A DNA stretch of 64,000 nucleotides, from IMG/VR virus record IMGVR_UViG_2718218360_000002, one strand, 5' to 3'. The position numbers were made by a program. Within the stretch, counting starts at the first letter, position 1. The number at the start of each line of letters is the position of its first letter. The stretch comes from a virus. Taxonomy: Duplodnaviria > Heunggongvirae > Uroviricota > Caudoviricetes. Shown piece by piece: positions 42,001 through 48,000 of this stretch.

Positions 42001-45000
42001 GCTCTGTTAAAAATTTAATCCTTAACCGGAGGTATATCAATGTCAAACGCACAGAAAGTTATTAACGCTGAAAAATATAACGAGTGGGTGAAAAAGTTCT
42101 CAGAGCAGATTTTTAAAATTACTGGCGACGAGAATGCGGCAAAAAATGAATTAGAGCCGTGGACACCTGAAGGTGTCGACCCAAATTATTGCTGGTGGGA
42201 TGTTGATCCAGTTGATGCTGCAAATGAAGCTATGAGTTATCACAACGATTAATGTCAGGAGGCCGCCCGAAAGGGCGGTAATGAAAAGTGACTGAATTAA
42301 CCAAAGAGAAATTAATCGAAGAAGCCAAATTAAAAATAGCGATTGCGAAATGCTACCCCAATTCAGGGATGGCACGGGTAGAGGGCGAGTTATTCAAAAT
42401 TGCACTGGCATCGCTGGAAGCAGAACCGATAGCGTGGGAATGCGGTGAAAACATAATCCTGTTTAACCCTGACACAGTTGAAGCATACGCAAAACGTGCG
42501 GAAATATCACCTAAACCACTATTCTCCGCGCCGCCAGCGCTGGTAGTGCCTGATAAGTTGCCGCGTGAATACAGAAACGGTTGGCCTCTTGCGTATAGTG
42601 ATTATGCTGAAGGCTGGAACGACTGCCGCGAAGCCATGCTTCAGGGAGATAAATCATGATTAATCGTATCAAGCTGGAGCACATCCTCGAATATGCCAGG
42701 CAGCAGAGGCATATTGGTCAGCATTGTAAAATTCCACCAGGAGATATGGTTGAAATCATGGAGATTGCCATGCGCAAGGCTGGCAACTCTCCGGTAACTC
42801 CGGATGGTTGGATAAGCTGTAGTGAGCGAATGCCGAATACCAAAACAGCCGTTCTTGTTGCCGTGGAGTTTGACAGGAAAGGTGACTGGCGAATGAAATG
42901 GGCTACTTACATCCCGGGGCATCCTGACGCTAATGATGGGTGGATAATTCCTGGTGCGTCGTGGAAACCGTCACACTGGATGCCGCTACCAGAACCGCCG
43001 CAGGAGGTGCGCCAATGATCTGGCCTGAAGCCTTTGCAATTACAGGCGTTGCTATAGCTATTGATTTTTTAGTATATGTTATTTGTCGGTGGGGGTAAAA
43101 ACGTTCGCCGGGATTCACACCAAAGGAGGGAATATGTCGGATGATATTTCACTGGCAATGGAAGGTGCGCTGGCTGTTATTGCTGTTGTGGGCGTTTACT
43201 GCCTGGTTGTGTTTTTGATGGATCGACTAGGGAACTGAATTCATTACGATATGGGAATTCCCATATCGGGTAAAAACGGTTTGCGGTAAAGCGAGAGTTA
43301 AGTAGAATTGCTGCGGGTGCTTGAGGCTATCTGCCTCGGGCATGAACACCAACGGCAGATAGAGAAAAGCCCCAGTTAACATTACGCGTCCGGCAAGACG
43401 CTTAACATTAATCTGAGGCCATATCTATGCTCTACACACGTAGGTTAGCCTCTTACGTGCCGAAAGGCAAGGAGAAGCAGGCTATGAAGCAGCAAAAGGC
43501 GATGCTAATCGCCCTGATCGTCATCTGTTTAACCGTCATAGTGACGGCACTGGTAACGAGGAAAGACCTCTGCGAGGTACGAATCCGAACCGGCCAGACG
43601 GAGGTCGCTGTCTTCACAGCTTACGAACCTGAGGAGTAAGAGACCTGGCGGGGGAGAAATCCCTCGCCACCTCTGATGTGTCAGGCATCCTCAACGCACC
43701 CCACTTAACTCGCTTCGGCGGTTTTTTGTTGTTTATTTTCGGTGAGCGTGATGCATCTGGTTGTACCGATGTGGCTGGCTGATTCTGTTATTCAGGTGGT
43801 TTATTGCTGTTGATTGGCATGTCTTCACGGCTAGAATCGAGGCTCTTAAGTAGCGCGCAGGGATAAGAGGGATGGCCCCCATAAGAGGGATGGCCCCCAT
43901 AAGGGGAGGTGTTTATAGTTCATGGGATTTTTGTTATGAACGATAAGGAATTAATTGCTGCGCTTTCTATACCAGGTAATTATGAAGTAATAGTTCTTGG
44001 GAATGGTGAGTTTATCGTAATGCCATTGCCATCTGATGTTATTCTGATCAGCAAAGAATCGCATGCGGATTCGGTCAGTTACTTCAGCATTAAAAGAGAC
44101 TAGATTATAATGCTGTAGTAAAGCCAGCCTGAACAACTGGCGTCTGTCGCACCATTACGAGGATAGTAGTGGTGCATTACAAGAAACTTAACAATTCTGA
44201 TAATTCAGCCGTCTTTGCCAGCAGGCACGGGCGGTGTTCTCATGCATTCAAATCTGACTGGTTCCAGCATGACCCATGCACTGAAGAACAGGCCGAATGG
44301 CTGATTCAGTGCTACCGCAGGCGTGGTTACGAGTTTCAGAAAGATCTCAGCTTCGATCGTCGTCACTGGATAATCTCCGCCAGGCTCCCTTATTCCGAAC
44401 GCCCACCGCGTCCGTCCCGCACATTCCAGCAGCGCATCTGGAGGTAACGTGCGGGTATTACTTCGACCTGTTCTGGTACCGGAACTCGGTCTGGTTATCG
44501 TTAAGCCAGGCCGTGAATCAATGTCAGTATTCCATAACGGCAGAATATTGGTGGAGCCGGAACCGAAAAACATGCGCGGTCTGCCGTCCGGAGTCGTTCC
44601 TGCCGTTCGCCAGCCGCTGGCAGAGGATAAAACATTACTGCCATTTTTCAGCGATGAGCGGGTTATTCGTGCAGCAGGTGGTGCAGGTGCACTGTCTGAC
44701 TGGTTATTACGTCACGTGAAATCCTGCCAGTGGCCACACGGCGATTATCATCACAGCGAAACAGTCATTCACCGTTATGGTACCGGCGCGATGGTGTTGT
44801 GCTGGCACTGCGACAACCAGCTGCGCGACCAGACATCAGAATCACTCGATCAACTTGCTCAGCAGAATCTGGTTGCCTGGATGATTGATGTCATCCGTCA
44901 CGCAATAAGCGGTACGCAGGAGAGGGAGTTATCGCTGGCCGAATTATCCTGGTAGGCGGCCTGCAATCAGGTGGTGGATGCACTACCTGAGGCAGTAGCG

Positions 45001-48000
45001 CGTCGTTCGCTGGGATTACCAGCGGAAAAAATCCGCTCCGTATACCGTGAGAGTGACATCGTACCGGGAGAACAGACAGCCATCAGCATACTGAAGCAGC
45101 GCACAAAAAATATTGCGCTGCCACTTCACGTCCACCAGCAACAAAATCCACCACAGAAAAAAACGGTTGTCAGTATCGCCGTTGATCCGGAGTCTCCTGA
45201 ATCGTTCATGAAACGACCTAAACGTCGCCGCTGGGTAAATGAGAAATACACACGCTGGGTAAAGACACAGCCGTGTGCGTGTTGTGGTAAGCCAGCCGAC
45301 GATCCCCATCACCTGATTGGTCATGGTCAGGGCGGAATGGGGACAAAATCTCACGATATTTTCACGCTACCGCTGTGTCGGGAGCATCACAACGAGCTTC
45401 ATGCGGATCCGCTGGCGTTCGAAGAAAAGCATGGTTCTCAGGTTGATTTAATTTTTCGTTTTCTTGATCACGCCTTTGCAACTGGCGTGCTTGGGTAAAA
45501 GAGGTGACTGATGCTCATAGATTTGGTTTTACCTTACCCGCCGACGGTGAACACTTACTGGCGACGCCGTGGCAGCACATATTTTGTATCAAAAGCCGGG
45601 GAGCGTTATCGCCGGGCAGTGGCGCTTATTGTTCGCCAGCAGCGACTGAAATTAAGCCTGTCCGGACGGCTGGCAATAAAAATTATTGCAGAGCCACCGG
45701 ATAAGCGCCGCCGTGACCTGGACAATATTCTGAAAGCACCGCTGGATGCGCTGACGCACGCGGGGTTGTTAATGGACGATGAGCAGTTTGATGAAATCAA
45801 TATTGTACGTGGAAAGCCAGTATCTGGTGGACGTCTGGGGGTGAAGATTTACCCCATAATGCTTGAAGGGCAGGTCAAAAAATGAAACTGGAAGATTTAC
45901 CGAAATACTACTCCCCAAAATCCCCTGGCCTGACCGATGCATCGGCCTCAACGTCAAAAGATGCGCTGAGTATCACTGATGTGATGGCCGCGCAGGGCAT
46001 GACACAGAATCGGGCTGAGATGGGGTTTTCTGCGTTCCTTGGGAAAATGGGCATTAGTATGAATGACAGAGAGCGGGCAACAGAATTGCTGACAGAATAT
46101 GCACTCAGTCGGTGTGATCGCGTGGCGGCGTTAAGAAAACTCCCGGCAGAAATAAAACCGGCAGTGATGCGTATTATGGCTTCGTATGCGTTTGAAGATT
46201 ATGCCCGTAGCGCGGCGAGCAAAAAACAGTGCCCCTGCTGTCACGGAAAAAAATTTATTGAAAGCGAGGTTTTTACAAACAAGATCCAGTATCCGGATGG
46301 TAAGCCGCCAGTGTGGGCAAAGTGCACAAAAGGCGTGTATCCGTCTTACTGGGAGGAATGGAAAAAAGTCAGGGAGGTGGTAAAAGTTGCCTGTCCGGAG
46401 TGTGGCGGAAAGGGTGAGGTTTCCACCGCCTGTAAGGATTGCCGTGGGCGTGGTGTCGCCATTCATCGTGAAGAGTCGGTAAAACGTGGTATGCCTGTTA
46501 TCAGAGACTGCCAGCGTTGTGGTGGTCGTGGCTGTGAAAGACTACCATCAACGGAGGCATTTAATGCCATATGTAATGTAACCGATGCCATATCTCTTGA
46601 TACATGGAAAAAAACAGTTAAACGTTTTTACGATACGCTGGTGGTGCAGTTTGATATTGAAGAAGCATGGGCAGAACAACAACTGAAAAAGGTGACCAGA
46701 TAGCTTTGTTGATTTTTCCCGAATCTGTGGTAAATTTGCCCTAACGATGGGCGTTTTATGCCTGACGTTAGAAGATTTTTTACACCCCGCCGCCTGGCGG
46801 GTTTTTTATGACTGAAATCGCGTCAGTACAGTAAACGCGCTGGTGGCGGTGAATACCGGTCTTTCAGCTTGCTGGCTTTTTTGACAAGAGTTATTGGTGT
46901 GTCACGTTAACCGAAAAAGGGAAAAAGACATGCTGAAACAGCAGGATATGACAGAAACCGCCAGAGCAGTGTTTAATGAATTAAGCGTCACCGAACCGGC
47001 GACAGTCGGGGAGATTGCGCAGAATACTTACCTTTCACGCGAACGCTGCCAGTTAATACTGACCCAGCTTGTTATGGCGGGTCTGGCAGACTATCAGTTC
47101 GGTTGTTACAGACGCCTTCAGTCCTGAAGGCTTTTTTATTTGTGGTAAATGGGCGGCTGGTGGGTGTTAGGGGCACTCACCAGCCATCTGCTCATGCGTC
47201 TGGATCACAAGCAAACCTCAGGCCCACTGCTTTGCGCAAAAGCAGAATGAGCCTATCAGAGACAGGCTTAATGATCCATGTTTAACACTGTAAAAATATC
47301 CAGTTGTGAGTTGATCAACGCTGACTGCCTGGAATTTATCCGGTCGTTACCCGAAAATTCTGTTGACCTGATAGTCACGGACCCGCCGTACTTTAAAGTG
47401 AAGCCTGAGGGCTGGGATAACCAGTGGAAGGGCGACGATGATTACCTGAAGTGGCTGGACCAGTGTCTGGCGCAGTTCTGGCGGGTGCTGAAACCTGCCG
47501 GAAGTCTTTACCTGTTCTGTGGCCATCGCCTGGCATCTGACATTGAAATCATGATGCGTGAACGCTTCAGTGTGCTGAACCATATTATCTGGGCGAAGCC
47601 GTCCGGACGCTGGAACGGGTGCAACAAGGAAAGCCTGAGGGCGTATTTCCCCGCCACAGAGCGCATTCTGTTCGCGGAACATTATCAGGGGCCGTATCGT
47701 CCGAAAGATGCCGGGTATGAGGCGAAGGGCAGGGCACTGAAACAGCATGTGATGGCTCCGCTGATTTCTTACTTTCGTGATGCGCGTGCTGCCCTGGGGA
47801 TAACGGCAAAACAGATAGTGGATGCCACAGGAAAGAAAAACATGGTGTCGCACTGGTTCAGTGCCAGTCAGTGGCAGCTACCGAACGAAAGCGATTATCT
47901 GAAATTACAGGCGCTGTTTGCCCGGGTGGCAGAAGAGAAGCATCAGCGGGGTGAACTGGAGAAGCCCCACCACCAGCTGCTGGAGACGTATACTTCACTG

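What the first reader, a model, noticed from the sequence alone, without database searches (positions are those of the whole stretch)
44449..45498. DUF968-type gene interrupted by a single in-frame amber codon
ORFs 44449..44955 and 44971..45498 are in the same frame, separated only by TAG at 44953-44955. The combined ~348 aa matches the size I recall for intact homologues in K-12 prophages (ydfU-like, from memory). This is either a nonsense pseudogene or a gene expressed only with amber suppression.
Basis: partly seen in the sequence, partly recalled or inferred. Interest (0 to 1): 0.45.

Follow-up and report, generated by a model that had tools for sequence, protein, structure and literature searches.

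The report
Nonsense-mutated prophage HNH nuclease gene
A prophage gene for a YdfU/DUF968-type HNH nuclease in E. coli O157:H7 was cut short by a recent single-base change (TGG Trp169 to TAG), an ordinary pseudogene that RefSeq already flags as "internal stop".

Summary
One 350-codon frame (GTG 44449 to TAA 45498) is broken only by TAG at 44953-44955. The window is an E. coli O157:H7 lambdoid prophage. The 1050 nt are 100% identical to 22 complete genomes, and RefSeq annotates one inspected copy as a DUF968 pseudogene with an "internal stop". Strain 2013C-4465 carries the same prophage backbone and differs in this gene by one base (window 44954, A versus G), giving TGG (Trp169) and an intact 349-aa protein. 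The TGG version of the surrounding 81-mer is exact in 229 genomes; the TAG version is exact only in those 22. Homologues are single full-length genes of 320-368 aa down to 26% identity. The affected column is always aromatic (W 22, F 2, Y 2 of 26). "Half-size" relatives carry frameshift junk tails and are not natural split genes. There is no tRNA in the window, and a strain with the TAG allele has wild-type glnV/glnX. The stop removes the C-terminal HNH domain (closest solved fold: phage P1 Ref) and leaves a 168-aa N-terminal domain that is predicted to fold alone. Verdict: a recent, lineage-restricted nonsense allele, already known and of low interest. Restart at GTG 44971 and Rho polarity on rusA-Q are untested.

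The parts
44449..45498 (+). Interrupted DUF968/YdfU-family (PHROG 96, 'HNH endonuclease') gene: 349 sense-codon positions plus the terminal TAA, with one internal TAG.
   Evidence: sequence and translation. (family matches). (RefSeq: pseudogene, internal stop). (one base different from the intact allele).
44953..44955 (+). Premature amber codon TAG at codon 169. The derived base is A at 44954; the ancestral codon is TGG (Trp).
   Evidence: TGG in L005, L004, L001 and L002. TAG 81-mer exact in 22 genomes, TGG 81-mer exact in 229; the column is W 22, F 2, Y 2 of 26 full-length homologues.
44449..44952 (+). The surviving ORF: 168 codons encoding the N-terminal Cys/His-rich domain (C93, C118 and W119 invariant; D122 near-invariant). 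The GGAGG Shine-Dalgarno sequence at 44440-44444 overlaps the stop of the upstream 92-aa ORF.
44956..45495 (+). The now-untranslated remainder (180 codons): two helices, a low-confidence linker and the C-terminal HNH/His-Me finger domain. The core motif C276...H287 H288...H314...H318 corresponds to about 45274-45402.
44971..44973 (+). First in-frame GTG after the stop, 16 nt downstream. AGGCGG at 44954-44959 lies 11 nt upstream of it. This is a possible but unproven translational restart giving a 175-aa C-terminal product.
   Evidence: The 175-aa ORF has been deposited as a 'hypothetical protein' on 26 contigs. No expression evidence exists.
45076..45155 (+). C-rich, G-poor stretch (C 35%, G 14%) encoding the His/Gln/Pro linker, 120-200 nt downstream of the premature stop. 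It is a candidate Rho-utilisation (rut) region once it is no longer translated.
   Evidence: Only 2 of 2290 windows between 41000 and 64000 reach its C-minus-G value, placing it above 99.9% of all 80-nt windows on the + strand. Function is inferred only.
44169..44447 (+). Upstream 92-aa ORF (PHROG 1212, unknown function). Its stop codon lies 1 nt before the DUF968 start codon, which suggests translational coupling.
45511..45885 (+). RusA Holliday-junction resolvase gene, the next gene in the same operon.
   Evidence: PF05866, E 1.5e-16..
45882..46703 (+). Q-type late antiterminator gene. It lies downstream in the same operon and would be affected if the nonsense codon is polar.
   Evidence: PF03589, E 7.6e-50.. 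A terminator-like hairpin follows at 46786-46801.

Best explanation
This is a recent nonsense allele (Trp169 to amber, G to A at window 44954) of a single-copy YdfU/DUF968-family gene. The gene sits in the nin-like region (hok/sok - 92-aa ORF - DUF968 - rusA - Q) of a lambdoid prophage that begins next to an ompW fragment and ends at a truncated ydfJ in E. coli O157:H7. The intact gene encodes one 349-aa polypeptide. It has an N-terminal Cys/His domain that is itself weakly HNH-like, two helices, a flexible linker, and a C-terminal HNH/His-Me finger nuclease domain whose closest solved relative is the RecA-dependent nuclease Ref of phage P1. In this lineage translation stops after residue 168. 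Shown: the canonical HNH domain is no longer encoded in the open frame. Inferred: the nuclease function is lost, and the product is at most a 168-aa N-terminal fragment. The mutation arose within O157:H7 on a prophage backbone that still carries the intact allele in sister strains. It has since been inherited clonally with no further change in the gene.
Against: Loss of function is inferred, not measured. The 168-aa fragment is predicted to fold confidently on its own and could keep a partial activity. A GTG with a weak Shine-Dalgarno-like AGGCGG lies 16 nt after the stop, so a separate C-terminal product cannot be excluded. All TAG copies are identical, so there is no post-mutation decay to demonstrate relaxed selection. 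Only supE was checked in the host; other amber suppressors were not. Clonal inheritance is inferred from sequence identity, not from a core-genome tree.
Confidence: 0.9

Rival explanations
1. The gene is still expressed as a full-length protein through amber suppression or programmed UAG readthrough, so the TAG acts as a regulatory or host-dependent switch.
For: The frame downstream of the TAG is fully intact. Tyr occurs naturally at this column in 2 of 26 homologues, so a Tyr-inserting suppressor would probably give an active protein.
Against: There is no tRNA gene in the 64-kb window. Both CUG glutamine tRNA genes, glnX and glnV, are wild type in TAG strain FRIK2455. The supE allele is exact in 155 records, and the 40 listed are almost all named K-12 or laboratory strains. 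The TAG is confined to 22 identical copies, whereas 229 genomes with the same flanks and all diverged homologues have a sense codon. The intactness of the downstream frame is uninformative, because no substitution at all has accumulated since the mutation.
Confidence: 0.03
2. The locus now works as a split gene. The 168-aa N-terminal domain is released at the TAG, ribosomes reinitiate at GTG 44971, and a separate 175-aa linker-plus-HNH protein is made, so function is largely retained in two pieces.
For: GTG lies 16 nt after the stop, with AGGCGG 11 nt upstream of it. The N fragment is predicted to fold alone (pLDDT 91). Phage families consisting of the HNH region alone exist: PHROG 1588 matches only residues 237-344, and the 81-residue YbcO chain 3g27 aligns to the C-domain. 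The N and C globules are joined by a low-confidence linker.
Against: The break is not at the linker. It lies inside a conserved, confidently modelled helix (163-172, 'ELxWWA'). No natural homologue read is split here; the short relatives read are frameshift debris. The Shine-Dalgarno-like match is weak and its spacing is long. No expression data exist.
Confidence: 0.06
3. The TAG is a sequencing or assembly artefact.
For: Other parts of the window show clusters of 1-2-nt indels typical of long-read assemblies.
Against: The change is a substitution, not an indel. It is identical in 22 complete genomes. The resulting 168-aa and 175-aa ORFs are on record on 79 and 26 contigs, including older draft assemblies such as strain PA40.
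Confidence: 0.01

Closest known systems
YdfU of the E. coli K-12 Qin prophage and Pfam PF06147 (DUF968); PHROG 96 'HNH endonuclease'
   Same: Same family and same length (349 aa). Same genomic position: upstream of the Q antiterminator, with rusA between the two in this prophage. Same Cys/His motifs. The Qin-like phage PhiR42_1 aligns over all 1050 nt at 83% identity. PMC5714182 places YdfU in His-Me finger group 7 and names RusA and Q as neighbours.
   Different: The window copy carries a premature TAG at codon 169. The intact members examined have TGG there.
Phage P1 Ref (recombination enhancement function, a RecA-dependent HNH nuclease; PDB 3plw)
   Different: Sequence similarity is below family thresholds. 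Ref is a 109-residue chain without the N-terminal domain. RecA dependence of YdfU-type proteins is untested. In the window this domain is downstream of the stop.
YbcO of the DLP12/82 prophages (DUF1364; PDB 3g27)
   Different: YbcO is a stand-alone small HNH domain. The YdfU type adds a ~190-residue N-terminal globule and a linker.
Nonsense pseudogenes in O157:H7 genomes (RefSeq 'internal stop' pseudogenes)
   Same: A single-base stop in an otherwise intact frame, flagged by the NCBI pipeline. Other genes in the same genome carry the same flag, for example ybeQ and djlC.
   Different: None of substance.

Membership tests
DUF968 / YdfU family (Pfam PF06147; PHROG 96) | Sequence match to the family profile above the curated threshold | tested here: met
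   PF06147 scores 239 bits (cut-off 27.8) on the downstream part and 257 bits on the intact allele, covering residues 160-346. PHROG 96 gives E 5e-175 over residues 1-348.
DUF968 / YdfU family (Pfam PF06147; PHROG 96) | HNH/His-Me finger motif and beta-beta-alpha fold in the C-terminal domain | tested here: met
   [not shown]
DUF968 / YdfU family (Pfam PF06147; PHROG 96) | One uninterrupted ORF of about 320-370 aa encoding both domains | tested here: not met
   TAG at codon 169. Relatives are uninterrupted. The locus is therefore a disrupted member (pseudogene), not a functional member.
Nonsense pseudogene (recent, lineage-restricted) | A point difference from an intact, near-identical allele that creates the stop | tested here: met
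   One base in 1050 (44954, A versus G) against strain 2013C-4465. The same prophage backbone is shared: 3 mismatches and one gap in 4050 nt.
Nonsense pseudogene (recent, lineage-restricted) | The stop is the derived state and is restricted to one lineage | tested here: met
   22 genomes carry TAG and 229 carry TGG for the exact 81-mer. An aromatic residue occupies the column in all 26 diverse homologues. Monophyly is inferred from sequence identity, not from a tree.
Nonsense pseudogene (recent, lineage-restricted) | Absence of full-length protein or function | not testable with these tools
   This needs immunoblot, proteomics or ribosome profiling in an induced lysogen.
Amber-suppression-dependent or programmed-readthrough gene | A cognate suppressor tRNA (CUA anticodon) in the element or host | tested here: not met
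   ARAGORN finds no tRNA in the window. The glnX and glnV anticodons are both CUG in TAG strain FRIK2455. The test is partial: other tRNA genes of the host were not scanned.
Amber-suppression-dependent or programmed-readthrough gene | Conservation of the in-frame stop among homologues | tested here: not met
   The TAG is found only in 22 identical copies. A sense codon is present everywhere else examined.
Naturally split two-gene version | Homologues encoded as two adjacent intact genes that break at this point | tested here: not met
   Representative search: full-length forms dominate. The short N-only forms read (P0127, P0128, P0174, P0185, P0186) end in junk tails, and the C-only form P0215 is internally corrupted. 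The genomic context of the short forms could not be fetched.

The most novel reading that the evidence does not exclude
The nonsense codon is not neutral. Two non-exclusive effects are possible. First, by uncoupling translation it may expose the unusually C-rich, G-poor stretch at 45076-45155 and cause Rho-dependent polarity on rusA and the Q antiterminator. That would damp late-gene expression of this prophage in one O157:H7 sublineage. Second, the autonomous 168-aa N-terminal HNH-like domain, with or without a restarted 175-aa C-terminal piece, may retain or change activity.
Probability: 0.1. Interest if true: 0.3.

Novelty: already known. Interest (0 to 1): 0.08.

Why it matters
It matters little beyond housekeeping. 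The case documents one more step of prophage decay in an O157:H7 sublineage, and the SNP (window 44954, G to A) could serve as a lineage marker. It also shows that the two "hypothetical proteins" deposited for this locus are halves of one YdfU-type gene. Two minor points may interest phage biologists. First, YdfU-type proteins look like tandem HNH-like proteins whose C-terminal domain resembles the RecA-dependent nuclease Ref of phage P1. Second, a premature stop upstream of rusA-Q could, if polar, affect late-gene expression. Neither point changes the verdict that the finding is an ordinary pseudogene.

Tried and rejected
2. Sequence search of solved structures found nothing useful (E > 1, zinc-finger noise).
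3. Natural split genes. The context of the 159-aa N-only relative P0189 could not be fetched. Reading the short relatives showed junk tails, so this idea was dropped.
4. A Foldseek search of AFDB50 was unavailable.
5. Promoter and terminator scan and Rfam scan of 42-48 kb. Nothing notable lies inside the gene; only the hok/sok RNA lies upstream and a terminator-like hairpin lies after Q.
6. The window is not strain FRIK2455 itself. It differs by indels elsewhere, so the exact source strain among the TAG carriers was not determined.
7. Literature on FRIK2455 gave no lineage information relevant here.
8. The other DUF968 paralogues in the same chromosome (7 megablast places per genome) could not be located with the tools, so redundancy was not assessed.
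Full report
OBSERVATION. Window 44449-45498 reads as one frame of 350 codons. It has a single internal stop, TAG at 44953-44955, and the terminal TAA at 45496-45498. The ORF list gives 44449..44955 (168 aa, GTG start behind a GGAGG at 44440-44444) and 44971..45498 (175 aa from the first GTG after the stop) in the same frame. The frame is open from 44956, so the locus has 168 + 1 + 180 = 349 codon positions.

WHERE THE WINDOW COMES FROM. The 1050 nt are 100% identical to 22 complete E. coli chromosomes. Every one that carries a serotype label is O157:H7, and the sources are cattle, beef, water and humans. In strain FRIK2455, RefSeq annotates exactly this interval as 'DUF968 domain-containing protein', pseudogene, 'internal stop'. 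The gene lies in a lambdoid prophage that starts at an integrase next to an ompW fragment and ends at a truncated ydfJ. The local gene order is hok/sok, a 92-aa ORF, DUF968, rusA, Q antiterminator, DNA methyltransferase, SASA esterase, then holin and lysozyme. The window differs from FRIK2455 by indels elsewhere, so it comes from another strain with the same allele.

WHICH CODON WAS REPLACED. Strain 2013C-4465 has the same gene annotated as an intact 349-aa protein. It differs from the window by one base in 1050: window 44954 is A and the intact allele has G, so TGG (Trp169) became TAG. Over the 4050 nt compared, this strain differs from the window by only 3 mismatches and one 18-nt gap, so the intact allele sits on the same prophage backbone. 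TGG is also present in strain MBT-5 (99.5% identity) and in phages mEp460_ev081 (88.9%) and PhiR42_1 (83%).

HOW COMMON IT IS. An 81-nt probe centred on the codon is exact in 22 of 5426 complete genomes in its TAG form. These are the same 22 that match the whole gene at 100%. In its TGG form the probe is exact in 229 genomes. A further 21 genomes carry the gene at 99.5-99.9% identity; the two of these that were read have TGG, and none has the exact TAG 81-mer. In the larger protein collection, the exact 168-aa fragment is on record on 79 contigs and the 175-aa fragment on 26. Both are deposited as 'hypothetical protein', including from older draft assemblies. The allele is therefore real, derived and lineage-restricted. 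It is also recent, because no further substitution has accumulated in the gene.

ARE HOMOLOGUES EVER TWO GENES HERE? Close relatives are 349-352 aa at 100% coverage, in clusters standing for thousands of sequences. An exhaustive search of 50%-identity representatives found 3070 relatives. Full-length single-ORF forms of 320-368 aa extend down to 26% identity. PHROG 96 (334 profile positions) aligns to residues 1-348. In an alignment of 26 full-length proteins, column 169 is W in 22, F in 2 and Y in 2. It sits in the conserved segment 'ELxWWA'. The short 'N-only' representatives read (P0127, P0128, P0174, P0185, P0186) end in non-homologous tails typical of frameshifts or deletions. The 'C-only' P0215 is internally corrupted. 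The survey also shows that this gene family is often found decayed in prophages.

WHAT THE GENE ENCODES AND WHAT IS LOST. Pfam DUF968 covers residues 160-346 of the intact protein, and the first 160 residues have no Pfam family. An AlphaFold2 model of the intact protein (31-sequence alignment, mean pLDDT 83) has three parts:
- a confident N-terminal globule, to about residue 190;
- a low-confidence linker, about 190-250;
- a C-terminal beta-beta-alpha unit, 255-349.

AMBER SUPPRESSION. ARAGORN finds no tRNA gene in the 64-kb window. A probe for the supE allele (glnV with a CUA anticodon) is exact in 155 records, and the 40 listed are almost all named K-12 or laboratory strains; 5268 records carry a non-exact match (95-99% identity). 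In FRIK2455, a TAG-allele strain, the two CUG glutamine tRNA genes are both wild type. Other possible suppressors were not scanned. The TAG is not conserved outside one clonal set, so nothing indicates designed readthrough.

POSSIBLE SIDE EFFECTS (INFERRED, UNTESTED). A GTG lies 16 nt after the stop, with AGGCGG 11 nt upstream of it. Reinitiation could therefore give a 175-aa C-terminal product. The segment 45076-45155, which encodes the His/Gln/Pro linker, is 35% C and 14% G. Only 2 of 2290 windows between 41000 and 64000 reach its C-minus-G value. Once untranslated, it could act as a Rho loading site and reduce rusA and Q expression. A strong Rho-dependent terminator upstream of ydfU has been reported in the K-12 Qin prophage (PMC9160355), but that is a different site. 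I found no evidence either way for the window.

VERDICT. This is a recent Trp169-to-amber nonsense allele of a YdfU/DUF968-family prophage nuclease gene in a sublineage of E. coli O157:H7. The pseudogene reading is supported, and the amber-suppression and split-gene readings are not. RefSeq already annotates it as a pseudogene with an internal stop, so it is already known and of low interest.

Noticed in passing
window 58301-59900 versus window 1201-2720: The portal-gene region of the second prophage differs from its paralogue in the first prophage by eight 1-2-nt indels (58439-59828) but only 2 substitutions, which breaks the portal ORF into pieces. RefSeq also flags this portal as 'frameshifted' in FRIK2455. 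The pattern looks like long-read homopolymer or indel assembly errors, or gene conversion plus decay. The two were not distinguished.
   Followed up: partly
window 12917-16389: The gpJ tail-tip gene of the upstream prophage is split into two overlapping ORFs (12917..14092 and 13969..16389). RefSeq flags it as 'frameshifted' in FRIK2455, along with that prophage's capsid and tape-measure genes.
   Followed up: no
window 1-6600 and 58300-64000: Two tandem lambdoid prophages carry nearly identical head and tail modules: the portal region compared (about 2.8 kb) has 2 mismatches, and the annotated products downstream are the same proteins in both. This makes a large direct repeat that invites recombination and assembly problems.
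   Followed up: partly
window 43315-43639: A complete hok/sok-type type I toxin-antitoxin locus lies about 800 nt upstream of the DUF968 gene. The Rfam sok match scores 111.7 bits at 43315-43489, and the mok/hokD reading frame runs 43427..43639.
   Followed up: no
[not shown]
   Followed up: partly
window 45076-45155: This is the most C-rich, G-poor 80-nt stretch of the prophage's rightward operon (C 35%, G 14%; above 99.9% of windows). It lies inside the DUF968 linker-coding region, downstream of the premature stop.
   Followed up: partly
window 19800-31500: An effector-rich, IS-ridden junction separates the two prophages: nleA, nleG, espM1, DUF1076 (NleG-like) genes, an ISEc8 and several transposase and integrase remnants with internal stops or frameshifts (RefSeq annotation of the matching FRIK2455 region).
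   Followed up: no
L008 (FRIK2455 780027-786121), outside the window: The same genome carries other chromosomal genes flagged 'internal stop' (ybeQ, djlC) and a frameshifted chiP. Single-stop pseudogenes are therefore not unusual in this background.
   Followed up: no
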